Below are positions 3,119 through 14,312 of a stretch of 29,482 nt of DNA, piece after piece. A program made the translations under genes and the position numbers. The DNA comes from Candidatus Hodarchaeota archaeon (lineage in GTDB: Archaea; Asgardarchaeota; Wukongarchaeia; Wukongarchaeales; Wukongarchaeaceae), in contig JBHLKN010000001.1 of the NCBI GenBank assembly GCA_048886645.1, forward strand, positions 30,732-60,213, read 5' to 3'. Positions within the stretch are counted from its first letter, which is position 1; each line of letters starts with the position of its first letter. The notes beneath the pieces are model-generated. The model had not been told where the DNA came from. It was given only the letters and a program-made list of their open reading frames with translations, and searched no databases.

Positions 3119-3352
3119 ATTTACCCCTCTAAGAAATCCTTAAGTGTCCATCTTAGACCTCAAAAAGGCAATCTCAAGCATAACTAATACTCAATGAATA
3201 TCTCAAAATTTTACTTTGTTTTATTTAATCGTTTCCATTTTATAAATTTAAACACGATTTTGAAAGTAAGCATATTAAGCGAAATAGGTCAAATACTTAA
3301 AAGTTTCGCAAAGAAATGAAAAATAAGCAAAAAAATCAGAACATTAAAAATT

Positions 3353-4321: not shown

Positions 4322-6535
4322 TTGTCTAATCACTTTTTCAAAGAATCTGATAAAAACTTCACCCTAGATAAACTACCAGGCGTCGGCTCCAAGCTTGCTA
4401 AAAAAATTGTATCTTTCTACGGGTCTTTAGAAACAACAATGGAAGCAATCCTTAATGGAGATGTAGCAGGTCTATCCTCCATAGAAGGCATCAGTCAAAA
4501 AACAGCCATAAACATCGTAAAAACAGCCTTTGCTTCAATAGAAAACATCAGTGTAGAAGGAATATTGAAAACAGAAAATGCGATAAAAATTCATAATCGT
4601 ATACTAAAAATAATCTTTCCCTTCTGCAGTACTGATTACGCTAAAAACAAACTATTTCTCTACTATCCCCTCCCCCCAAACTTCCTTGAAAAAATACAAC
4701 AAAGATTTGAAAAGCTAAAGATAGCGAAAAAATTAGTAGAAGATCTTAAAGAAGAAGATTTAGAAAAAATTAAAAAAATACTGTCAAAAATTTCCCCCCT
4801 ATACATAACTCGCAAGAAAAAAAGAGTAGAAGACCGAGTAGTTATAACAGAAAAAGAAGAAATCTATAAAAAATTCATAAATAAGAACTGTTCAGATTTT
4901 TGCCCAATCTACCTAATCGAAAACATGGATGAAGCAATAGATTATGCAAAATCTTTTAGCCTAGCCTTATTGGTAAGCGGCTCCCTTTATATGGACCATT
5001 CCCTCGAAAATATTCCAAACCTCGAAATACTATCTCCCTCGACAGATATAATCGACATTTTTCCCGAACTTGTCCTAAGTTTTTACACTCAAAAATATGA
5101 AACCATTAACGCTGTTTGTAACCTAAACGCTCTTTTAAAAGAGTTAAACATAATACCCATAGTCGAAAACCTTGTGGGCTCCATTAATTCAGAAGCATTG
5201 GAAATTGTTGCAGAAGGAATATCCCAACTTACACCGGAAGGAGATATAGTCGAAAAAATAGACCCTGAAATAGACAGATATCGAACAGCTTTAGAAAACC
5301 TCGACGGAATCATTTCAGATGTAGAAGTTTGGGCAAACGAAGAAATTTCAAGAAAAATCGGTGAAAGCTCTATAACCCTAAAAGGGGAGCAAATACTTAC
5401 ACTCTTAAAAGAAGCCGACGAAATGGGTAGTCTACGAGGAATCGTAGAAGAAGATATCGTTGAAATCATTGAAGAAGCCGTTACAAAAGCAGAAGACAAA
5501 ATAGCAGAACAACTAGACCTAACCCCTTCAGAACTAGAAATTATTGAAGGAATCTTTTCCCGTGAAACAGTCTACCCCCTACAAGTAAACAACATACGCT
5601 TAAGAGAACTAGAAGACACCCTCAGAAGAAACTACACAACCAAAAAATACTGGTTACTCAAAAAAATAGCAAACCAACTAAAAGAATTAGAAGAAAAGAC
5701 AAGAGAAGCTGTAAAAGCCTTACTCGAATTCGACGTACACCTCGCAATATCCCTCTTTGCAAAAGAATACAATCTAAGCCCCCCCGAAAACCTCTACACG
5801 GACACTTATGGAATATCCTTCAAAAACGGATACAACCTCTTCTTAAAAGAAGCAGAACTAGAAAACGGAAACCCCGTAATCCCCATAAGATATACGGTGG
5901 GAAACATACCAAAAGACCAAGAAGCAGAAGTAGGGGACGAACGCGTTATCATCCTAAGCGGAGCTAATTCGGGGGGGAAAACCACATGCATAACCCTTCT
6001 AGCCCAATTAATAATAATGGCGCAATCAGGACTACCAATACCCGCTGAAAACGCTAAAATAGGGCTTTTCGACGAACTATACTACTTCGCAAAAACTACA
6101 GGATCAATGGACGCAGGGGCCCTTGAATCAACACTAAAAACCTTCGCCAAAGTCATCGTAGAAGGAGAAGGATCAAAACTAATCCTTGTAGACGAACTAG
6201 AAGCAATAAGCGAACCTGGAGCCTCAGCCAAAGTAATAGCAGCAATACTCGATTTACTTCACGAGAAAGAAAACTCCTGTGGCGTTTTCGTAAGCCACCT
6301 AGCAGAGGATATCCTAAAATTTACTCAAAGCAAAATACGCGTTGACGGTATTGAAGCAACAGGACTCGACGGAAACCTAAACCTCATAGTAGACAGAACA
6401 CCAAAATTCAACTATCTCGCCAAATCCACGCCAGAACTCATTGTAGAACGCTTAGCCCGCCTCTACAAAGAGGTCCAAGACCATGAAGTATACAATAAAA
6501 TCCTTGAACGCTTCAAAGAAAAAGAAACCCCCTAA
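4322..6535 (+). CDS. Archaeal MutS-like ATPase (MutS domain V) with an N-terminal tandem helix-hairpin-helix domain
   Basis: 737 aa. HhH motifs are LPGVGSKLAKKIV and IEGISQKTAINIV. Walker A is GANSGGKTTCITLLAQ and Walker B is LILVDELEAISEPG. TTG start at 4322 with GAGGG about 10 nt upstream. Confidence 0.8.
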   Translation: MSNHFFKESDKNFTLDKLPGVGSKLAKKIVSFYGSLETTMEAILNGDVAGLSSIEGISQKTAINIVKTAFASIENISVEGILKTENAIKIHNRILKIIFPFCSTDYAKNKLFLYYPLPPNFLEKIQQRFEKLKIAKKLVEDLKEEDLEKIKKILSKISPLYITRKKKRVEDRVVITEKEEIYKKFINKNCSDFCPIYLIENMDEAIDYAKSFSLALLVSGSLYMDHSLENIPNLEILSPSTDIIDIFPELVLSFYTQKYETINAVCNLNALLKELNIIPIVENLVGSINSEALEIVAEGISQLTPEGDIVEKIDPEIDRYRTALENLDGIISDVEVWANEEISRKIGESSITLKGEQILTLLKEADEMGSLRGIVEEDIVEIIEEAVTKAEDKIAEQLDLTPSELEIIEGIFSRETVYPLQVNNIRLRELEDTLRRNYTTKKYWLLKKIANQLKELEEKTREAVKALLEFDVHLAISLFAKEYNLSPPENLYTDTYGISFKNGYNLFLKEAELENGNPVIPIRYTVGNIPKDQEAEVGDERVIILSGANSGGKTTCITLLAQLIIMAQSGLPIPAENAKIGLFDELYYFAKTTGSMDAGALESTLKTFAKVIVEGEGSKLILVDELEAISEPGASAKVIAAILDLLHEKENSCGVFVSHLAEDILKFTQSKIRVDGIEATGLDGNLNLIVDRTPKFNYLAKSTPELIVERLARLYKEVQDHEVYNKILERFKEKETP

Positions 6536-7752: not shown

Positions 7753-9405
7753 TTACAACATCGTGTTTTTTAAAAGCTTATCTACCGATTCTAAAAATTT
7801 TCTATTCTCTTCCAATGTTTTAGGATCCATACTTTTTCCTAATTTCTCTAAAACAATTTCTAATGCAGAACAACTTCTTACAAGATATGTAAAAGCTTCA
7901 TTAGAACTAGGATCTTTTTTAAAACCTTCCACAGCTGTTTCTACAAGTTTCCTTACCTCAGGTAAAACGATTTCCCCTATCTCTAAATTATACTCTAAAG
8001 CTTTTTCCAACGCAAAAACCACATGTTTTTGAACTTCCGGATCATCCTCTCCCAAAAAATTAATCATCAAAGGTAACGCTTTTTCACTCACCTGCGGGTT
8101 ATTATATATCAAAGTTTTAAGGATAAACGCCAACTTTTCTTTTATTTCCCAATGTTCCCATTTCCGGAAAGAAAAAAGAACATCTTCCACGATCAATTCT
8201 TCAAGCATCAACACTATCTGTATCGCTATATCCTGACTATGCCGTGCCCCCTGCTCAACAACCTTATATAACGTTTCAAAAGCACTTTTTCTAACCTCAA
8301 AATCCATATCTCTCAACAAACATTTCAAAATCTCTACCGCTTCCTTTAAAGCCATAAAATCTACGCTTACCATATCCACCAAAGAATCCGCTATTGCAAC
8401 ACGTATCTCCCTATCTCCACTTTTCAAAAAATCCTTCAGAAGTCTTAAAACCCCCCCTACAAACTCCGGAAAATTTTTAACCAAAATAGAAAGAGCAACC
8501 ACCGTTTCTTTACAAAACCTTTCTTTATCCCTCGCTAACTCCTGCATCCACAAAAAAACATCCTTCAAAACATCTTCTGAAACATTGGATATAATCTCAA
8601 TCAAACAAGAATAAGCCTTCAATCTAACATGCGCTTTTTCACTCTCAATCATCCTCCTAATAATCGGAAACAAAACAGCAATCCGATTAGGCAAACTATT
8701 TACCAATTCATTCATTATATAACAAGCATAATCTACTACAACTTCATTATCGTCAAAAACAATCTCCTTCAAAATTGAGATGGTTTCTTCTTCAAAAAAT
8801 TCCGCATTAGTCTCAACAAAAACATCTAAAGCATCCATAGCCCTCATACGCATCTCCCTATCCCCCAAAGAAAGATACCTTAACTCAGGCAATAACTTAC
8901 AAGGCAACTCCAAGTTAATCCTCGCTACTTTACGAAGAGTATTTACCGCAGCCTCCCCAACCTTAGGATCCTTATCCAAAAAAAGCCGCCTCAAAACCCC
9001 CATAACCTCCCCACCTATACCCGGATATTTCTTCAAAGCCACACACAAAGATTCAGAAGCAGTATCATACACCATAAATTCCCTACTTCTCAACAAATTC
9101 TCAAGCGTCTTAAGACTCAAAAAAGCAGTTTCTTCACTTATCGTCACTATTTCCTCCAAAAGCCCCCTAGCACACAAAAGCTGATTCCAAACCTGCTTCT
9201 CAGCCTTATCTTTAAAAACTCCCCTGTTTGCAAAATTTCTCAATTTTTTACCATAACTTAAAATCAATTCCTCAAATACACTAAGCAGATTTAAAAGAAA
9301 AGTCGCTGACCCGCTTTCTTTTAATATTTTCACAGCGTCTTTCAAATCATCTAATTTTACCTCTTGCCTAACCTTCATATAAATACGCCTTTCCCTAACC
9401 CACAT
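7753..9405 (-). CDS. Large all-alpha HEAT/armadillo-like repeat protein, function unknown
   Basis: 550-aa uninterrupted ORF with repeated helical ~35-40 aa units carrying ...VR..A...L... patterns (DREMRMRAMDAL, DREIRVAIADSL, DFEVRKSAFETL, DPEVQKHVVFAL). An alternative start is the ATG at 9378. Confidence 0.6.
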   Translation of the reverse strand: MWVRERRIYMKVRQEVKLDDLKDAVKILKESGSATFLLNLLSVFEELILSYGKKLRNFANRGVFKDKAEKQVWNQLLCARGLLEEIVTISEETAFLSLKTLENLLRSREFMVYDTASESLCVALKKYPGIGGEVMGVLRRLFLDKDPKVGEAAVNTLRKVARINLELPCKLLPELRYLSLGDREMRMRAMDALDVFVETNAEFFEEETISILKEIVFDDNEVVVDYACYIMNELVNSLPNRIAVLFPIIRRMIESEKAHVRLKAYSCLIEIISNVSEDVLKDVFLWMQELARDKERFCKETVVALSILVKNFPEFVGGVLRLLKDFLKSGDREIRVAIADSLVDMVSVDFMALKEAVEILKCLLRDMDFEVRKSAFETLYKVVEQGARHSQDIAIQIVLMLEELIVEDVLFSFRKWEHWEIKEKLAFILKTLIYNNPQVSEKALPLMINFLGEDDPEVQKHVVFALEKALEYNLEIGEIVLPEVRKLVETAVEGFKKDPSSNEAFTYLVRSCSALEIVLEKLGKSMDPKTLEENRKFLESVDKLLKNTML

Positions 9406-9860
9406 CTATACAATAGCTTCAATAATCAATTCGCCTAATTATCTTTTAAAAACACTAATTAATGAATGTAACTGAAAAAACCCCTCTCTAGAAAAATCCA
9501 CGCCCAAATTCTAAAAACCAGAAAATATACATTTTTTTGTTAAAAAATAATCAAAAAACCCTTACAATTTACAAAATTATGAAAAAGTTTATAAACCCCC
9601 AAAACAAAAAAATACACAGCGACCTTAATTGTGTTTTTACCGTCTTTTTTTTCCTTTTTACTATCTCACAAAAAACAAACTCACCCCCCCTCCCACCCAT
9701 TATACCCAAACAACATCTAAAAAAACAATATCACCCCCCCTTATTTTCCCATTTTAACCCCATACACGTAAAACTGTACCGCTAAATCCCCAACTTACAC
9801 AACATTTTTAAAAAACAATACACAAAACCGAGTTACACAAAACGATTAAGGTGCCCCTAA

Positions 9861-10307
9861 ATGTTTGTAAGACGTTGGCTCAGTCCAAGCATGCTCAACG
9901 TAACACTCTTCATCACCACCATGATGCTCCTAACACAAATACCAACTACATATTACGCCCTCCACATCCTAGAACTAAACGCCCAAGAAAACTGGCCAGT
10001 CTACACCCTACTACCCCTCGGAACAGTCCTCATACTAACAATCTCCACAATAAACCTCTCCGAAATGCTAATACTAAAAATAAAAGGCTTCGTAGACGAA
10101 AAAGAAGCAATCCTAATAACCATAATGATAACCACCATATTCTTCTACATCGGATTCTTCCTCATCGGAACAGAAATACTACAAGAAATAAACTTCATAC
10201 AAGACCGAAGAAACGTATACAAACTAGGCATCTACTACCTAACAGGAGTAACACTCGCCCTAACAACAAACAACACCATATACTCACGCCTAGAAAAAAA
10301 ACACTAA
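9861..10307 (+). CDS. Small integral membrane protein (about 4 TM), unknown function
   Basis: 148 aa with four hydrophobic stretches separated by charged loops. AAGGTG lies 8 nt upstream of the ATG. Caveat: this stretch has few G or T, so stop codons are rare and a second frame (9851..10375) is also open. Confidence 0.5.
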   Translation: MFVRRWLSPSMLNVTLFITTMMLLTQIPTTYYALHILELNAQENWPVYTLLPLGTVLILTISTINLSEMLILKIKGFVDEKEAILITIMITTIFFYIGFFLIGTEILQEINFIQDRRNVYKLGIYYLTGVTLALTTNNTIYSRLEKKH

Positions 10308-10383
10308 AAAAAAAGAAAAAAAATAAAAACAACACAAAACAAATAAAACAAAAACAACCAAAAAATAAAAACTAGAAAAAACG

Positions 10384-10396
10384 CCGAGGTAGCTTT
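10384..10396 (+). repeat. Left copy of a 13-bp direct repeat, GCCGAGGTAGCTT (orphan copy of tRNA nt 1-13)
   Basis: Exact match to 12538-12550, the first 13 nt of the tRNA. Sits exactly at the junction between the A/C-rich and T/G-rich tracts and is followed by T8. Confidence 0.6.
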
Positions 10397-10689
10397 TTTT
10401 TCTTCGTTTTTTATGTTGGGGTGGGTTTCCGCTGTGTTTTTTTGTTTTTCTCTGCGGAGATCTGTTTTTGTTTTTTGCTGTGTTGGTTAAAATATGTTTT
10501 TTCGGTGTTTCTTTTCAGGGGGGTTAAATGGGATTACACTGGTTTTTGGTGGTTGAATTTGTGGTTTTTTTACTTTTTCTTTTTTTTATTCGTTTGAAAG
10601 CCTAATATATTCACTTTTGTCCTCCTCTCCATAAAGCTTATATATGGCATATATTATATGTATGATCTATATTTTATGGGGTAAAAAAG

Positions 10690-12552
10690 ATGCGAAGAAC
10701 AGTAACAGAAGGGGGACTTTTGACCTTTCAAGGCAAACTTTTAGAGGTAAAAGAAGAAGACAGTGTTAAGATTGATGATCTTATGAGGCGGTTTCAATCT
10801 GCAAAAAGAACTGCTTTCAAAAGGCTTGTAGAAGGTGGAAATAAGAATAAAGGTTTAGAAAAAGAGCTTGTTGAGAACTTTATTCTAAATTCGGAATATG
10901 CAAGATCTGCTATCTCTGATGCGAAAGCGATAATGGATAGTCAAAGGGAACTATTACCTTACTATATTGCGAATTATGAGGGGAAGATAAGAAAGAGTAA
11001 GAAAAAGTTGGAAAAATGTCGTTCTGAGCTGAAGCAAAAAGGTCTATTCTCAAGAATAAAGAAGTATGAGGAGAAAAGAGATCTTCTAAAACTGTATTTA
11101 GAGAATGAAACCATACCTAGGGTGATATTTGGAGGGAGAAGGAACTTTGAGCTTTTCATAAAGGGAGAGATAACGAGGGAAGAATGGAGAGCGTTAAGAA
11201 CAAACCAAGTTTACAGTAAAGGCAGAGCCGTTGGAAAGGGTAATAATAACTTAAGGGTAACTTACGAAGGAGATGGTGAAAGAAATCAGTTCTACTTATG
11301 GATAAACTATCCTTCTAAAAAAGTGGGAAAGTGGGGGAGTAAACAGAAGTATAAACTTTTTGTTCCAGAACCTTTCAAGCCATACATTATAAAAAGCTTG
11401 GAGACTGAGGAAAAAGAGTTTGGAAAAAAGAAAAAGTCTAAGACTTGTACTAAAAAAGCGCACACAGTAAGGGTAATTCGCAGGAAAGGAGGGGAATATT
11501 ATGTTTTCATAACTGTGGAGGTTTTTTGTCCAGAAGAAGCTTTATCGAACGCCAAAGAAAAAGGTTTGTTGGGTTTAGATGTTAACACTAAGGGTATAGG
11601 GGCAGCAATAGTTCTCCCCAACGGTAACCTAAGAGCGCACAGATGGTTTCCATGCCACGAACTTCTATATGTAAGAAACGAAAAACGCTCGCACTTGATA
11701 GGAAATCTTTTGGTTAAGGTTTTCAGGTGGGCTAAAGGTTTCGGTGTAAACACTGTTGTTTCTGAGAGTTTTAACAGGTTTAAACGAGATCATGATACCT
11801 ATGGGAAGTTTAACCGTGCAACGCATAACTTCTGTAAGGAGAAGATGGTTAGAACCATTAAAAGTAGAGCAGTAAAAGAGAACTTTGTTCACATAGAAGT
11901 TTTCCCAGCTTACAGCTCCATAATAGGAGCAATAAAATATCAAAAAATATATGGCTTGAGTACTCATGAGGCAGCCGCTTTTATAATAGGCAGAAGGGGT
12001 TTAGGATACAACAAGGAAAGGATTCCGAAAGAATTTTCCGAGAGCTTAAAGCCAGAGGGGCGTCGCCGATGGAAGGATGACGTTGATCCTTTGGCAAGCA
12101 TCTGCCGCCAGTGGGGCGGTCTATGGAAACAAGTTTCGAAGATAAAAAACAGTTTCTTCGAAACAACAAGGGAGATACCTTTAAATCATCGCAAATTCAT
12201 AAGGCATCTCCTTATTAAAGCAAGTGGCGCTGACAGCGCGCTTCAGCTCGCGCTCTCCTACCTAAAGAAAAAGGGAGAGACGGAAGTAGAGGCAACCAAA
12301 CCGTTGTCGAGGTTCAGATCCTACCTCGACAATCTAATAAGTTTGGTCCTCGAAAACGCTGAAGAACTACGTGAGAATCGTAGCACTAGACGCAAACAGT
12401 CGCTATGCATCGTCGTAGACTTTATAAACAATAAAGGATTTTCTACCTTCACAAATCTACGATCTGAAGAAAACACCCCCAAAGGATCAAAGTCTCTAAA
12501 ACGGCATATAAGGGCTTTCAAGGGCGGTTTTCGAGCGGCCGAGGTAGCTTAG
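10690..12552 (+). CDS. TnpB/Cas12-superfamily-like RuvC-fold protein; atypical (no Zn-ribbon, degenerate RuvC-III, long C-terminal extension)
   Basis: 620 aa. RuvC-I-like GLLGLDVNTKGIGAAIV (D297, nt 11578-80). RuvC-II-like NTVVSESFNRF (E359, nt 11764-66). VFPAYSSIIG corresponds to the PAYTSQ box of TnpB. STHEAAAFIIGRRGLG corresponds to the D.NAA.NI..RG box, with T/H-E in place of the catalytic D. There is no CxxC pair between these boxes. TTATATAT at 10638-45 and GGGGT precede the ATG. Confidence 0.6.
   Translation: MRRTVTEGGLLTFQGKLLEVKEEDSVKIDDLMRRFQSAKRTAFKRLVEGGNKNKGLEKELVENFILNSEYARSAISDAKAIMDSQRELLPYYIANYEGKIRKSKKKLEKCRSELKQKGLFSRIKKYEEKRDLLKLYLENETIPRVIFGGRRNFELFIKGEITREEWRALRTNQVYSKGRAVGKGNNNLRVTYEGDGERNQFYLWINYPSKKVGKWGSKQKYKLFVPEPFKPYIIKSLETEEKEFGKKKKSKTCTKKAHTVRVIRRKGGEYYVFITVEVFCPEEALSNAKEKGLLGLDVNTKGIGAAIVLPNGNLRAHRWFPCHELLYVRNEKRSHLIGNLLVKVFRWAKGFGVNTVVSESFNRFKRDHDTYGKFNRATHNFCKEKMVRTIKSRAVKENFVHIEVFPAYSSIIGAIKYQKIYGLSTHEAAAFIIGRRGLGYNKERIPKEFSESLKPEGRRRWKDDVDPLASICRQWGGLWKQVSKIKNSFFETTREIPLNHRKFIRHLLIKASGADSALQLALSYLKKKGETEVEATKPLSRFRSYLDNLISLVLENAEELRENRSTRRKQSLCIVVDFINNKGFSTFTNLRSEENTPKGSKSLKRHIRAFKGGFRAAEVA
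12538..12550 (+). repeat. Right copy of the 13-bp direct repeat (functional tRNA nt 1-13)
   Basis: Identical to 10384-10396. Also forms the last four sense codons and part of the TAG stop of the 620-aa ORF (GCC GAG GTA GCT TAG). Confidence 0.6.
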
Positions 12553-12651
12553 CCCGGGAGCAGTATAGGTGGCATAATACGACACTTTCTCTCCGATAGC
12601 GCTGGACTGAAGATCCAGTTGTCGCTGGTTCAAATCCGGCCCTCGGCGCCA
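12538..12651 (+). tRNA. tRNA-Phe (anticodon GAA), CCA-encoded, with a non-canonical ~37-39 nt intron in the D-arm
   Basis: Acceptor stem GCCGAGG (12538-44) / CCTCGGC (12641-47). T-arm GCTGG-TTCAAAT-CCGGC (12624-40). Anticodon arm CTGGA-CTGAAGA-TCCAG (12602-18) with GAA at 12609-11 and G37. Variable loop TTGTC. D-arm 5' part GCTT-AGCCCGGGA-G, then an insert at about 12561-12597, then AGC-G26. G73 followed by CCA. Confidence 0.85.
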
Positions 12652-12729
12652 CTCCCACTTAAACTCTAAATTCTGTCTATTTATCATTAAAGAAGAAAAT
12701 TTTTAAACCAAGAAAACTGTTATGTTATC

Positions 12730-12880
12730 TGCAACGCCTGCTGGAAGTTAAGCCCAGTCACGTTTTGCCGAGTACTTCTGTGCGCGAGTCAGCGGGAAAG
12801 GTAGAAAGTTGTAGTTTCGGCCACGGCCAAAGCGCTGGGGAAACACCCGATCCCAGCCGAACTCGGAAACAGGCGTTGTA
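12730..12880 (+). other. Processing stem with a bulge-helix-bulge-like motif enclosing the 5S rRNA
   Basis: 11-bp stem TGCAACGCCTG (12730-40) / CAGGCGTTGTA (12870-80, one G-U). Then a 4-bp helix CTGG (12741-44) / TCGG (12863-66, two G-U). 3-nt bulges AAG (12745-47) and AAA (12867-69) lie on opposite strands. Confidence 0.7.
12747..12868 (+). rRNA. rrf: 5S rRNA, circularly permuted gene (3' part encoded first, 5' part second; 122 nt between the predicted BHB cuts)
   Basis: 12820-12868 is GCCACGGCCAAAGCGCTGGGGAAACACCCGATCCCAGCCGAACTCGGAA, which matches the archaeal 5S 5' third. 12747-12815 is GTTAAGCCCAGTCACGTTTTGCCGAGTACTTCTGTGCGCGAGTCAGCGGGAAAGGTAGAAAGTTGTAGT, which matches the 3' two-thirds. 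A UUCG loop at 12816-19 joins the natural ends. Confidence 0.85.
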
Positions 12881-12885
12881 TATGT

Positions 12886-12893
12886 CTTTTTTT
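12886..12893 (+). terminator. Oligo-T tract downstream of the 5S processing stem (archaeal-type terminator candidate)
   Basis: CTTTTTTT lies a few nt after the 3' arm of the stem, and further T-runs follow. Confidence 0.4.
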
Positions 12894-13013
12894 GCTTTTT
12901 CGTCTGTTTTTGTTTGTTTTTGAATGGTTTTATGCTGTTGTGGTGGCTTTCTTTTTTTTTTGAGGTAGTAGTACTACTTTGGTATTACTTTTATTTTTAT
13001 ATGAAATGGCGGT

Positions 13014-13028
13014 TTTTCCTATGGAAAA
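13014..13028. promoter_or_regulatory. ORB-core-like dyad TTTTCC-TAT-GGAAAA upstream of orc1/cdc6
   Basis: Perfect 6-bp inverted arms. Resembles the TTCCA-N-TGGAAA core of archaeal mini-ORB elements. Lies about 65 bp upstream of the orc1 ATG. Only a single copy was seen. Confidence 0.25.
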
Positions 13029-13091
13029 TATTAATATACTCTTTATGTTTTTTGTTTTCTTACATTTTTCTTTTTGGTGGGTCGGTGTGGT

Positions 13092-14312
13092 ATGGCAAAT
13101 GTGATAGATAATCTAGATGAGATGTTCGAAAATTATTTGTCAGGGTCGAAAATTTTTAAAAATCGTGATACGATGCGTCCTTCTTATGTGCCAAGGAAGC
13201 TTCCTCATAGAACGGAGAAGGCTTTGGATTTGGGGAGAATTTTAGCACCGGCTTTAAGGGGTGAAATTCCTTCTAATGCTTTATTATATGGGAAGCCTGG
13301 TACTGGTAAGACCGCGGTAACTCAGTATGTTCTTCAAAAAATGAATGCTAAATGTGTCGAGGCAGGGATACCTCTCACCTCTACTTATTTTAATTGTCAA
13401 CTTGTTGATACAAATTATCGTGTTTTAACTTCTCTTTGTCAGGAAATTGAAGTAGAAGTGCCTATAACTGGGCTTCCAACTGTCGAAGTGTATTCACGGT
13501 TTACCAGAGCTTTGGATGCTAAGGATTTGCAGATGATAATAATACTTGATGAGATTGATGCTCTTGTAAAGAAGAGTGGTAGTGAGGTTCTTTATAGTTT
13601 GACGAGGATTAATACGGATCTTAAAAGAGGGAAGGTGAGTCTTGTTGGTATCTCGAATGATACGCGTTTCAAGGAGCTTTTGGATCCTCGTGTTTTGAGT
13701 AGTTTAAGTGAGGAGGAGATTGTTTTTCCGCCTTATAACGCCACAGAACTTAAAGATATTCTGCGGGAACGTGCTTTAATAAGTTTTAATGAGGGAGTAA
13801 TTGATGATGGCGTGATCGGTCTATGTGCGGCTTTAGCTGCAAAAGAGCATGGTGATGCAAGGAGGGCTCTTGACTTATTAAGGGTTGCAGGGGAGCTTGC
13901 GGAGAGATCAGGCTCGCAAAAAGTAATAGGAGATCATGTAAAAGAGGCTCAACGGGTTATAGAGCGAAACATGGTTGAAGAGGTCATAAAAACTCTTCCT
14001 CTCCAATCAAAGCTCGTGCTTTTCAGCATATACTTACTTGAAAAAGAAAACCTTCATGATATTTACACGGGCCAACTTTACAACACGTATCATGAAGTTG
14101 CCCGTGAAATGCGGGTGGAGTCTTTGACTCAAAGAAGAATTAGTGATCTCATAAATGAGCTGGACATGATGGGTATTATCAATGCATTAGTGATCTCTCG
14201 TGGGAGGGGTGGTCGTACACGGAAAATAAATCTGAGCATTCCTATACGCCAGTTAAAATCGTTCATTGAACATGATATCAGGTTTTCCGCTTATCTAGAT
14301 CTCATACCTTGA
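13092..14312 (+). CDS. cdc6: Orc1/Cdc6 replication initiator (AAA+ plus C-terminal winged helix)
   Basis: Contains LPHRTEKALDLGRIL, Walker A LLYGKPGTGKTA, Walker B MIIILDEIDAL, sensor GISND and GDARRALDLLRVAGE, plus a wH tail. ATG at 13092 preceded by GGTG. The track's TTG start at 13074 is less likely. Confidence 0.93.
   Translation: MANVIDNLDEMFENYLSGSKIFKNRDTMRPSYVPRKLPHRTEKALDLGRILAPALRGEIPSNALLYGKPGTGKTAVTQYVLQKMNAKCVEAGIPLTSTYFNCQLVDTNYRVLTSLCQEIEVEVPITGLPTVEVYSRFTRALDAKDLQMIIILDEIDALVKKSGSEVLYSLTRINTDLKRGKVSLVGISNDTRFKELLDPRVLSSLSEEEIVFPPYNATELKDILRERALISFNEGVIDDGVIGLCAALAAKEHGDARRALDLLRVAGELAERSGSQKVIGDHVKEAQRVIERNMVEEVIKTLPLQSKLVLFSIYLLEKENLHDIYTGQLYNTYHEVAREMRVESLTQRRISDLINELDMMGIINALVISRGRGGRTRKINLSIPIRQLKSFIEHDIRFSAYLDLIP

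What the first reader, a model, noticed from the sequence alone, without database searches (positions are those of the whole stretch)
10384..12550. About 2.15-kb insertion bounded by 13-bp direct repeats identical to tRNA nucleotides 1-13
Seen: GCCGAGGTAGCTT occurs at 10384-96 and at 12538-50. The right copy is the acceptor 5' strand, nt 8-9 and D-stem 5' strand of the functional tRNA-Phe. The left copy is an orphan followed by T8, and it sits exactly where the strand composition flips. Between them lie only a T/G-rich leader and the 620-aa TnpB-like ORF, whose last codons and stop are built from the right repeat. Inference: a mobile or integrative element inserted into the 5' part of the tRNA gene (after nt 13) and carries its own copy of nt 1-13, so the tRNA stays functional. 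That is att-site logic, but at the 5' end of a tRNA and with no tyrosine or serine recombinase in the element. Caveat: some 13-mer pair is expected by chance in a 29-kb window. The argument rests on this specific 13-mer being the exact 5' end of the tRNA.
Basis: partly seen in the sequence, partly recalled or inferred. Interest (0 to 1): 0.7.

Follow-up and report, generated by a model that had tools for sequence, protein, structure and literature searches.

The report
tRNA-start-targeting TnpB-like Asgard transposon
A 2.1-kb mobile element encoding a Cas12/TnpB-like protein and a large structured RNA has inserted into the first 13 bases of an Asgard archaeon's tRNA-Phe gene, duplicating those bases so the tRNA stays intact; sister copies sit at the same position in five other tRNA genes, a targeting mode not described for this kind of element.

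Summary
Three related metagenomic contigs are empty sites, where the same upstream flank joins directly to tRNA-Phe with one copy of the 13-mer. The 2,142 bp between the repeats is therefore an insertion. Sister copies (about 80% identical) abut nt 1 of five other tRNA genes. Four of the six sites, counting the window, keep an 11-14-nt repeat of their own tRNA's 5' end followed by a conserved T-rich left end. The repeat is therefore a target-site duplication, not an element-borne att copy. The ORF's first ~450 residues model as a Cas12f/TnpB-like fold with a zinc-finger-less D-E-H RuvC. The last ~500 nt lose codon-position bias and form a conserved, covarying multi-helix structure ending flush with tRNA nt 1, like an ωRNA scaffold. 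I infer RNA-guided targeting by read-through into the tRNA 5' end, and tRNA expression that depends on the element. The insertion chemistry is unresolved. No matching description was found in the literature searched. Canonical IS200/IS605 elements make no duplications.

The parts
10383..10395 (+). Left copy of the 13-bp target-site duplication (an orphan copy of tRNA-Phe nt 1-13). The native tRNA promoter region lies immediately upstream.
   Evidence: Exact repeat. In the empty sites L022, L023 and L024 the same upstream flank runs straight into the tRNA with a single 13-mer.
10396..10565 (+). Left end of the element: a T-run followed by a T/G-rich leader. The conserved core is about 10396-10462 (TTTTTTCTTCG...GTTGGGGTGGGTTTCCGCTGTGTTTTTTTGTTT). 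It holds 8 oligo-T (>=5) tracts on the + strand and no A-runs.
   Evidence: It is homologous to the left ends of L003, L007, L001 and L009, each of which directly follows its own tRNA-derived repeat. Composition is 54% T and 28% G.
10566..10689 (+). 5' region conserved in all copies, with an A/T-rich TATA-like box (AAAGCTTATATATGG, 10633-10647). This is the presumed promoter and 5' UTR of the nuclease gene.
   Evidence: blastn homology to all sister copies starts at about 10565. The promoter function is an inference.
10690..12552 (+). 620-codon ORF. Residues 1 to about 450 (10690-12039) form a TnpB/Cas12-fold protein of the SSO2105_N (PF27229) / TIGR01765+TIGR01766 'TnpB-related' family. The ORF stays open through the RNA region and stops inside the tRNA (TAG at 12550-12552).
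   Evidence: Family assignment. The AF2 model has pLDDT about 90 for residues 1-450 and below 50 for 453-620. The best Foldseek hits are Cas12f and Cas12k, probability 1.0. D297 and E359 are conserved, position 426 is His, and there is no CxxC motif. Third-codon-position excess holds only up to ORF nt ~1350.
12043..12537 (+). About 500-nt structured region, read as an omega-RNA-like scaffold. It overlaps the 3' end of the ORF and ends flush with tRNA nt 1.
   Evidence: No third-position excess. RNAalifold predicts 154 pairs, 12 of them compensatory. 95.1% of cells are paired against 39-45% for slid controls, and 0 of 500 shuffles reach the observed covariation. The single-sequence MFE is -160.9 kcal/mol, z = -5.6.
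12538..12550 (+). Right copy of the target-site duplication, which is nt 1-13 of the functional tRNA-Phe.
12538..12651 (+). tRNA-Phe(GAA) gene with encoded CCA and a 37-nt non-canonical intron in the D-arm (12561-12597). This is the host target gene, left intact by the insertion.
   Evidence: The intron-less orthologs are called tRNA-Phe by ARAGORN. The acceptor strands GCCGAGG and CCTCGGC pair perfectly.

Best explanation
This is a member of a small Asgard-archaeal family of transposons. They insert into the first 11-14 bp of tRNA genes whose 5' end reads GCSGRGGT. Each insertion duplicates those bases, so an intact tRNA is rebuilt at the element's right end and an orphan 5' fragment is left at its left end.

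The element has five parts. First comes a conserved T-rich left end. Optional cargo follows (a small RHH-like gene, or a CHAT protease plus an unknown gene). Next is a promoter, and after it a gene for a zinc-finger-less TnpB/Cas12-fold protein. Last is a structured RNA of about 500 nt that overlaps the end of that gene and stops at the base before tRNA nt 1.

Shown: the insertion (empty sites), the duplication, the multiple tRNA targets, the conserved ends, the protein fold and the RNA structure.

Inferred, step 1: the protein and the structured RNA form an RNP, as TnpB does with its omega-RNA. Because the scaffold ends at the element boundary, read-through transcription appends the tRNA's first ~13-16 nt as a guide. 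That would aim the RNP at the 5' end of the same tRNA gene in empty copies (homing or retention). With mismatch tolerance it would also reach other tRNA genes that share the GCSGRGGT start.

Inferred, step 2: the oligo-T array at the left end stops transcription coming from the displaced native tRNA promoter. The tRNA would then be transcribed from the element and released by RNase P. That cut would also define the 3' end of the element's RNA and would tie the expression of an essential gene to the element.

Not resolved: which enzyme makes the staggered 11-14-bp breaks and joins the DNA.
For: Insertion and duplication. The empty sites L022, L023 and L024 (86-90% identical flanks) have the upstream flank joined to tRNA-Phe with one copy of the 13-mer. 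The tRNA starts at the first base of the 13-mer.

Family and targets. In six distinct sites the conserved element end ...GGGCGTTTTCGAGC(N) abuts nt 1 of six different tRNA genes. A seventh genome shares the Phe junction (P0008). At least three copies carry locus tags of the same MAG.

Target-derived repeats. The repeats are 13 nt (window), 14 nt (L001, L005, L009), 12-13 nt (L007) and 11 nt with one indel (L003). Each starts at nt 1 of the local tRNA and is directly followed by the homologous T-rich left end. Chance expectation is 4e-7 to 4e-4 per site.

Protein. The model is confident for residues 1-450. Foldseek's best hits are Cas12f and Cas12k. D297 is found in 42 of 42 sequences and E359 in 41 of 42.

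RNA. Codon-position bias is lost in the last ~500 nt. The consensus fold has 154 pairs, 12 of them compensatory. Controls are, and the single-sequence z-score is -5.6. The C-terminal 170 residues have pLDDT below 50. Bacterial relatives also have a structured 3' region closed by a 16-bp stem that ends at the element's last base.

Insulation. The leaders hold 3-25 oligo-T tracts on the + strand and no A-runs, whereas the 1.85-kb ORF plus scaffold holds only 2. No conserved TATA-like box lies in the last 60 nt before the tRNA.

Established knowledge. TnpB omega-RNA scaffolds overlap the 3' end of tnpB, and the guide is the flanking DNA beyond the right end (Karvelis et al. 2021; Altae-Tran et al. 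2021; summarised in PMC13565253).
Against: No RNA data are available, so neither the guide nor the RNase P step has been observed. RNase P cleavage at nt 1 would remove the proposed guide from the scaffold.

No conserved TAM-like motif precedes the target in the four native flanks (...GAAAAAAC...AACTAGGC...TTAATAAC...AGCTTCAG).

Cas12 and TnpB nucleases cut at the TAM-distal end of the target. They are not known to make breaks at position 0 and position 11-14. TnpB is not a transposase in IS200/IS605, and that family makes no duplications (PMC13565253).

The third RuvC residue is His rather than Asp, and the zinc-finger (TNB) domain is missing, so nuclease activity is uncertain.

The L006/L002 site shows no left repeat or leader in the ~5 kb of upstream sequence available, and the L008/L012 site shows none in the 1.3 kb available.

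Element relatedness does not track target similarity.

Orthologous insertions shared between MAGs show long-term residence, not recent mobility.
Confidence: 0.6

Rival explanations
1. Non-autonomous transposon moved by an unlinked transposase. A DDE-type or other enzyme encoded elsewhere in the genome recognises the conserved left and right ends, selects tRNA starts and makes the 11-14-bp staggered cut. The TnpB-like RNP would only help retention or homing, or regulate, as TnpB does in IS200/IS605.
For: Target-site duplications are the signature of transposase-type strand transfer, and TnpB is dispensable for IS200/IS605 transposition (PMC13565253). The conserved left and right ends could be transposase-binding sites. 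The cargo varies while the ends are kept.
Against: There are no terminal inverted repeats. The duplication length varies between 11 and 14 bp. No candidate transposase gene lies in the element or next to it in any locus. Every copy retrieved keeps the TnpB-like gene, all of them intact except L003/L004, and the gene is under purifying selection. A partner enzyme elsewhere in the genome could not be searched for.
Confidence: 0.25
2. One reading: an integrative element using att-site logic. The element carries its own copy of tRNA nt 1-13 (attP) and recombines with the identical sequence in the tRNA gene (attB) through a site-specific recombinase supplied in trans.
For: The perfect 13-bp direct repeat restores the tRNA. 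tRNA genes are classical att sites. In L023 a different ~1.2-kb insert sits at the 3' end of this same tRNA-Phe, bounded by a ~23-nt repeat.
Against: Closely related elements are flanked by repeats of different sequence, each matching its own local tRNA. Conservation between copies ends exactly outside the repeats. No recombinase is encoded. The repeat length varies between 11 and 14 nt, which is unlike a fixed core site.
Confidence: 0.05
3. RNA-mediated (target-primed) copying. The element's transcript, whose 3' end is set by RNase P cleavage at tRNA nt 1, is copied into DNA at a nick made exactly at the -1/+1 boundary of a tRNA gene. A second-strand nick 11-14 nt downstream then creates the variable duplication.
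For: This would explain why one junction is exact at a position that is special only at the RNA level (the RNase P site), while the other junction varies. It would also explain the absence of inverted repeats, the variable duplication length and the homopolymer-rich variable end.
Against: No reverse transcriptase is encoded in the element or the nearby flanks. The homopolymer is at the 5' end of the sense strand, not the 3' end. Cargo-bearing and cargo-less versions both keep the same left end, so the pattern is not one of 5' truncation. Nothing comparable is known in archaea.
Confidence: 0.05
4. Domesticated module, no longer mobile. The nuclease-like protein and its RNA were fixed upstream of several tRNA genes and now serve the host, for example as an RNA-guided regulator of tRNA transcription in the manner of nuclease-dead TnpB relatives (TldR).
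For: Orthologous insertions are shared by different MAGs (L001/L005/L009; L002/L006/L010/L011; window/P0008). The ORFs are under purifying selection. The RuvC triad is non-canonical and there is no zinc finger. The phylogeny is star-like at about 80% identity with no near-identical copies.
Against: The Phe insertion is absent from three relatives at 86-90% identity, so it is polymorphic at species level. The cargo varies. One copy (L003/L004) is decaying. This reading is compatible with past mobility, so it complements the main explanation more than it competes with it.
Confidence: 0.1

Closest known systems
IS200/IS605-family tnpB-only elements (IS1341 type) with omega-RNA
   Same: A single large ORF with a TnpB/Cas12-type RuvC fold. 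There are no terminal inverted repeats. A structured RNA overlaps the 3' end of the ORF and ends at the right boundary, so the flank would be read as the guide. Bacterial members of the same protein family are ~2-kb IS-like units annotated as IS605 OrfB or TnpB-related.
   Different: This element makes an 11-14-bp target duplication, whereas IS200/IS605 make none. It targets a 12-nt-scale sequence at tRNA starts rather than a 4-5-nt motif. It has no zinc-ribbon domain, and His replaces the third RuvC Asp. Pfam's OrfB_IS605 and OrfB_Zn_ribbon models do not hit. The scaffold is much longer (about 500 nt). It carries cargo genes in some copies.
Type V-K CRISPR-associated transposons (Cas12k) homing to tRNA genes
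   Same: A Cas12-fold protein with doubtful nuclease activity and a long structured RNA, associated with a transposon that uses tRNA genes as its home site. Cas12k structures are among the best fold matches. tRNA homing by V-K CASTs is mentioned in 10.1101/2025.07.27.667033.
   Different: No TnsB, TnsC or TniQ genes are present and there is no CRISPR array. CASTs insert tens of bp downstream of the tRNA target with a 5-bp duplication. Here the insertion lies inside nt 1-14 at the 5' end.
Integrase-driven elements integrating in tRNA genes (att sites)
   Same: A direct repeat of part of a tRNA gene flanks the element, and the tRNA is reconstituted.
   Different: Those elements use the 3' half or the anticodon loop. 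They carry a fixed attP copy and encode a tyrosine or serine recombinase. Here the repeat is at the 5' end, is target-derived and varies with the tRNA, and no recombinase is encoded.
Eukaryotic tRNA-gene-targeting transposons (Ty3, Dictyostelium TRE5-A, Dada DNA transposons)
   Same: These are position-specific insertions at or just upstream of tRNA gene starts that spare the tRNA. Dada families insert inside tRNA and snRNA genes (PMC13565253).
   Different: The enzymes are unrelated (integrase/RT, or the Dada transposase). Targeting goes through Pol III factors or protein recognition. The domain of life is different.
Casposons
   Same: Archaeal transposons that produce long (14-15 bp) target duplications and are often found at tRNA genes (my own knowledge; review PMC9939771 appeared in the list but was not read).
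   Different: Casposons have terminal inverted repeats, use a Cas1 integrase and PolB, and target tRNA 3' ends. None of these features is present here.

Membership tests
TnpB / IS200-IS605 (OMEGA) elements | Protein with a TnpB/Cas12 architecture (WED/REC plus a split RuvC) | tested here: met
   The AF2 model (pLDDT ~90 for residues 1-450) matches Cas12f, Cas12k and Cas12e structures with probability 1.0 and target TM up to 0.57. TIGR01766 'TnpB-related' hits below its cut-off (18.6 bits against 32).
TnpB / IS200-IS605 (OMEGA) elements | Pfam OrfB_IS605 and OrfB_Zn_ribbon domains; a zinc-finger (TNB) insertion in RuvC; a D-E-D catalytic triad | tested here: not met
   There is no Pfam hit to these models. 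No family member has a CxxC motif, and the third position is His in 38 of 42 sequences.
TnpB / IS200-IS605 (OMEGA) elements | Structured RNA that overlaps the 3' end of the ORF and ends at the element boundary | tested here: met
   See, and for the flush boundary. Expression of the RNA and binding by the protein were not tested.
TnpB / IS200-IS605 (OMEGA) elements | Insertion 3' of a 4-5-nt target motif (TAM) without a target-site duplication | tested here: not met
   An 11-14-bp duplication is present at 4 of 6 sites, and the window's duplication is confirmed against empty sites. The four native flanks share no common motif.
TnpB / IS200-IS605 (OMEGA) elements | Sub-terminal DNA hairpins at both ends and a Y1 TnpA transposase (in cis or in trans) | tested here: inconclusive
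   No tnpA lies in the element or the flanks. A hairpin (GTGAAAT...ATTTCAC) precedes the promoter in some copies, but it is not terminal. A genome-wide search for tnpA was not possible.
RNA-guided nuclease function | Guide-dependent DNA binding or cleavage | not testable with these tools
   This needs biochemistry or RNA-seq.
Site-specific integrative element (att / integrase) | Element-encoded tyrosine or serine recombinase | tested here: not met
   The only long ORF is the TnpB-like gene, and it has no recombinase domain.
Site-specific integrative element (att / integrase) | The same core (attP) sequence carried by related elements | tested here: not met
   The repeats differ between sister elements, and each matches its local tRNA.
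Classical DDE insertion sequence | Terminal inverted repeats together with a fixed-length target duplication | tested here: not met
   No inverted repeat joins the termini. The duplication measures 11, 12-13, 13 and 14 bp.
PF27229 (SSO2105_N) / TIGR01765 protein family | Sequence match to the family | tested here: met
   PF27229 is precomputed for the identical protein P0001 and for 58 of the 64 homologs. TIGR01765 hits the N-terminus at E = 1.3e-9, with 37.9 bits against a cut-off of 47.25. The local Pfam copy does not hold PF27229.

The most novel reading that the evidence does not exclude
The TnpB-like protein and its ~500-nt RNA would form a self-sufficient, single-protein RNA-guided transposition system. 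Read-through into the tRNA supplies the guide. The RNP recognises the first ~13 nt of a tRNA gene and itself makes, or directs, the breaks at position 0 and position 11-14. Those breaks would produce the duplication. The element would then re-programme its guide automatically at every new tRNA, and would also take over transcription of the tRNA.
Probability: 0.2. Interest if true: 0.95.

Novelty: new variant of a known kind. Interest (0 to 1): 0.75.

Why it matters
TnpB/OMEGA elements are the ancestors of Cas12, and textbooks describe them as passengers of duplication-free IS200/IS605 transposition. Here a TnpB-fold protein with an unusually large RNA sits in a transposon that behaves differently. 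It inserts at one precise, RNA-defined landmark, the first base of a tRNA. It duplicates 11-14 bp and keeps the essential gene alive while separating it from its promoter.

If targeting is guide-based, this would be a natural, compact RNA-programmed insertion system from the archaeal lineage closest to eukaryotes, and it is directly testable with one protein and one RNA. If it is not guide-based, there is still an unknown transposase with a remarkable specificity for tRNA starts. That specificity parallels Ty3, TRE5 and Dada in eukaryotes. The element also suggests an 'addiction' strategy in which the expression of an essential tRNA becomes dependent on the element.

Tried and rejected
ARAGORN fails on all the intron-bearing Asgard tRNAs, so tRNA identities other than Phe rest on reading the anticodon loops by eye. 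The Rfam gathering scan found only a misaligned tRNA.

A second, divergently oriented element left of 10383 was rejected. The genes there are a HEAT-repeat protein and ordinary neighbours, and the region is present in the empty-site relatives.

I searched every copy for an internal, bridge-RNA-like segment complementary to its own tRNA 5' end. Nothing consistent turned up.

Correlation between element relatedness and target similarity: none (Spearman -0.09 and -0.27, not significant).

Terminal inverted repeats: none. Tandem-repeat structure in the leaders: only low-complexity T-rich units.

tRNA adjacency in distant family members (Parageobacillus, Altiarchaeales): absent, so the trait is specific to the Asgard clade.

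The viral-contig scan found no relatives. P0002 and P0004 could not be retrieved as DNA.

An attempt to find an empty site for the tRNA-Leu target through the flanking V-ATPase D gene failed, because the next homolog is only 60% identical.

Literature searches for SSO2105, ISC1913, TnpB with tRNA genes, and Asgard mobile elements gave no description of such an element.
Full report
1. THE OBSERVATION

GCCGAGGTAGCTT occurs exactly twice in the window, at 10383-10395 and at 12538-12550.

The right copy is nt 1-13 of a tRNA-Phe(GAA) gene at 12538-12651. ARAGORN and Rfam fail on it or misalign it, because a 37-nt intron (12561-12597) interrupts the D-arm. In two related contigs the gene has no intron, and ARAGORN calls tRNA-Phe starting at the first base of the 13-mer (L023:1901-1977, L024:3732-3808).

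The left copy is followed by six more T's and a T/G-rich tract. Between the repeats lies a single long ORF, 10690-12552.

A 13-mer anchored at tRNA nt 1 is expected 1.7e-5 times in 5 kb.

2. IT IS AN INSERTION: EMPTY SITES

The window comes from a Candidatus Hodarchaeota MAG. Orthologs of the downstream orc1/cdc6 gene (89-93% identical) led to three contigs from other assemblies.

In these contigs the window's upstream flank, up to 10395, is contiguous with the tRNA from 12538 onward. The 13-mer is present once and the flanks are 86-90% identical to the window.

The 2,142 bp at 10396-12537, plus one copy of the 13-mer, are therefore an insertion.

The A/C-rich tract left of the repeat is native. 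It is just as G-poor (about 8% G) in the empty-site relatives. The 'composition flip' is thus a native tract meeting the element's own T/G-rich left end.

3. IT IS A FAMILY, AND THE TARGET IS THE START OF tRNA GENES

Homologs at 74-82% protein identity occur in the same MAG and in related Asgard assemblies. DNA for them was retrieved as loci L001-L012.

DNA homology between copies runs from about 10565 to 12537. In all six distinct sites the conserved right end ...GGGCGTTTTCGAGC(N) is followed immediately by nt 1 of a different tRNA gene. All six tRNAs start with GCSGRGGT. A partial protein from a further MAG (P0008) back-translates to the same tRNA-Phe junction.

Four of the six sites keep a left repeat that starts at nt 1 of the local tRNA:
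- 13 nt in the window.
- 14 nt, GCGGGGGTGGCCGA, in L001/L005/L009.
- 12-13 nt, GCGGGGGTAGCC, in L007. It lies 4.7 kb upstream because that copy carries ~2.7 kb of cargo.
- 11 nt with a one-base indel in L003.

Each repeat is followed directly by a homologous left end: T5-8, CTT..., then ...GTTGGGRTGGGWTTCCGCTGTGTTTTTTTGTTT.

Two sites show no repeat. The L002/L006/L010/L011 site has about 5 kb of upstream sequence available, and the L008/L012 site only 1.3 kb. The repeat may have been lost there, or it may lie beyond unrecognised cargo.

Related elements carry different repeats, each identical to its own target, and element-specific conservation stops just outside the repeats. The repeat is therefore a target-site duplication created at insertion. 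It is not an att copy carried by the element. There are no terminal inverted repeats.

4. THE PROTEIN

Pfam's TnpB models do not hit. NCBIfam gives sub-threshold hits to TIGR01765 and TIGR01766 ('TnpB-related'). The database assigns PF27229 (SSO2105_N).

An AlphaFold2 model built on 42 homologs is confident for residues 1-450 (pLDDT about 90) and collapses below 50 for residues 453-620.

Foldseek against the PDB returns Cas12f, Cas12k, Cas12e and then RuvC as best matches, with probability 1.0.

Across the family D297 is invariant and E359 nearly so. The position equivalent to the third RuvC carboxylate is His in 38 of 42 sequences. No member has a CxxC zinc-ribbon motif. The protein is therefore a zinc-finger-less D-E-H variant of the TnpB/Cas12 core, and its catalytic competence is unknown.

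5. THE 3' 500 nt ARE AN RNA-LIKE ELEMENT

Up to ORF nt ~1350, third codon positions vary 3-4 times more than first and second positions. From there to the end (window ~12040-12537) the excess disappears. Indels stay in multiples of three until about nt 1650, and single-base indels appear only in the last 60 nt.

The six distinct copies share a consensus fold of 154 pairs in 21 helices, with 12 pairs showing compensatory changes. In the controls, 95.1% of cells are paired against 39-45% when partners are slid, and 0 of 500 shuffles reach the observed covariation. The window sequence alone folds with z = -5.6.

The structure ends 4-5 nt before tRNA nt 1.

Bacterial relatives (Parageobacillus, 522 aa) are ~2.0-kb IS-like units that are not next to tRNAs. 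They have a ~215-nt structured 3' non-coding region closed by a 16-bp stem that ends at the last base of the element. A 3' RNA scaffold ending at the right boundary therefore looks like a family trait, as in TnpB omega-RNAs.

6. HOW IT MOST LIKELY WORKS

Shown: a transposon with a conserved left end, variable cargo, a TnpB-fold gene and a scaffold-like right end. It inserts into nt 1 to 11-14 of tRNA genes and duplicates them, so that the tRNA is rebuilt at the right end.

Inferred (a). By analogy with TnpB, the scaffold plus read-through into the flank would yield an RNA whose guide is the tRNA's first ~13-16 nt. That would direct the RNP to the same tRNA start in empty copies. It would also direct it to other tRNAs that share GCSGRGGT, since neighbouring targets differ by 1-2 mismatches in 12 nt.

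Inferred (b). The native tRNA promoter stays upstream of the orphan fragment. It is followed at once by 3-25 oligo-T tracts on the sense strand, compared with only 2 in the 1.85-kb gene plus scaffold. No conserved TATA-like box lies in the last 60 nt of the element. The tRNA is thus probably co-transcribed with the element and released by RNase P. That would tie the expression of an essential gene to the element.

Unresolved: who cuts and joins the DNA.
- Cas12-type enzymes are not known to cut at position 0 and at 11-14.
- No TAM-like motif is shared by the four native flanks.
- RNase P would separate the scaffold from the proposed guide.

The rivals are:
- An unlinked transposase, with the RNP acting as an accessory.
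- An RNA-mediated, target-primed mechanism. This would explain why the exact junction sits at a landmark that exists only at the RNA level, but no reverse transcriptase is seen.
- Domestication.

7. COMPARISON WITH KNOWN SYSTEMS

The closest are IS200/IS605 tnpB-only elements with omega-RNA. They share the fold, the RNA placement and the lack of inverted repeats. But that family is defined by duplication-free insertion next to a 4-5-nt motif (PMC13565253). Here that feature was tested and not met, as were the zinc ribbon and the Pfam domains.

Type V-K CASTs share the Cas12-fold protein, the long RNA and tRNA homing. They need Tn7 proteins and insert downstream of the target.

Integrase elements, casposons and the eukaryotic Ty3, TRE5 and Dada elements share single features only.

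Full-text searches found no description of a TnpB-like element that targets tRNA 5' ends or makes duplications. I rate it a new variant of a known kind.

8. VERDICT

The thing itself is more interesting than first proposed.

Confidence is about 0.95 that this is a tRNA-start-specific transposon with a target-site duplication. It is about 0.4 that targeting is guided by the RNA reading into the tRNA. The overall figure for the composite explanation is 0.6.

Noticed in passing
window 12727-12883: 5S-rRNA-like sequence in an abnormal order. The segment resembling the 3' half of 5S (GAAGTTAAGCCC...GAGTAC...GTGCGCGAG...GGGAAA, about 12744-12817) lies upstream of the segment resembling the 5' half (CGGCCACGGCC...GGGGAAACACCCGATCCCAGCCGAACTCGGAA, about 12819-12872). 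The whole is bracketed by an inverted repeat (12727-12740 / 12870-12883). Rfam's 5S model hits the two halves separately and below threshold (17.9 and 16.1 bits against a gathering score of 38). It could be a circularly permuted 5S gene or two broken copies. The region is conserved at about 90% in L022 and L024. Wu et al. 2022 (PMC8813620) state that 5S rRNA genes could not be predicted in Heimdallarchaeum genomes.
   Followed up: partly
window 12561-12597; L022 about 174-199; L023 and L024: The tRNA-Phe gene carries a non-canonical D-arm intron that is polymorphic between close relatives: 37 nt in the window, about 26 nt with a different interior in L022, and none in L023 or L024. The intron is present in the empty site L022, so it is independent of the transposon.
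   Followed up: partly
L023 1955-3234: A different insertion of about 1.2 kb lies immediately after the 3' end of the same tRNA-Phe. It is bounded by a ~23-nt direct repeat of the tRNA 3' end (window 12629-12651 matches L023 at both 1955-1977 and 3212-3234) and carries small genes, including a DUF1059 gene. This is classical 3'-end att logic at the same tRNA.
   Followed up: no
window 7753-10382 (also L023 3-1900 and L024 1052-3624): A 2.6-kb stretch is extremely G-depleted on the + strand (about 8% G, GC skew down to -0.57). It spans a minus-strand HEAT-repeat gene and roughly 1 kb of poorly coding sequence, and it ends at the tRNA-Phe promoter. orc1/cdc6 lies just downstream (13074-14309), so a replication origin may be nearby. 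No ORB-like repeats were found in 12640-13090.
   Followed up: partly
L007 1217-3738: One sister element carries cargo between its left end and the nuclease gene: a CHAT-domain protease (Pfam E = 1e-42, with a weak PADLOC BovA hit) and a 460-aa protein with no family hit whose C-terminus contains an R-x4-H (HEPN-like) motif. This may be a defence cargo.
   Followed up: partly
L003 4268-4459; L002 58-270; L006 about 4600-4860: Some copies carry a small (~63-aa) gene upstream of the nuclease gene. By eye its sequence looks like a ribbon-helix-helix/CopG-type regulator, but it has no Pfam hit. It is followed by a hairpin (GTGAAAT...ATTTCAC) and a T-run.
   Followed up: no
window 10393-10409 and 10579-10595: The left-terminal motif CTTTTTTTTCTTCGTTT recurs at 94% identity 186 bp downstream, exactly where the conservation shared by all copies begins. 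This suggests the T/G-rich leader arose by duplication or expansion of the original left end.
   Followed up: no
L013 4570-4783 and L016 4570-4785 (Parageobacillus): Bacterial members of the protein family are ~2.0-kb IS-like units inserted between ordinary genes. No tRNA is nearby and no duplication is evident. Their 3' non-coding region is closed by a 16-bp stem (CCTGGTTACTAAAATC / GATTTTAGTAACCAGG) whose last base is essentially the element's end.
   Followed up: partly
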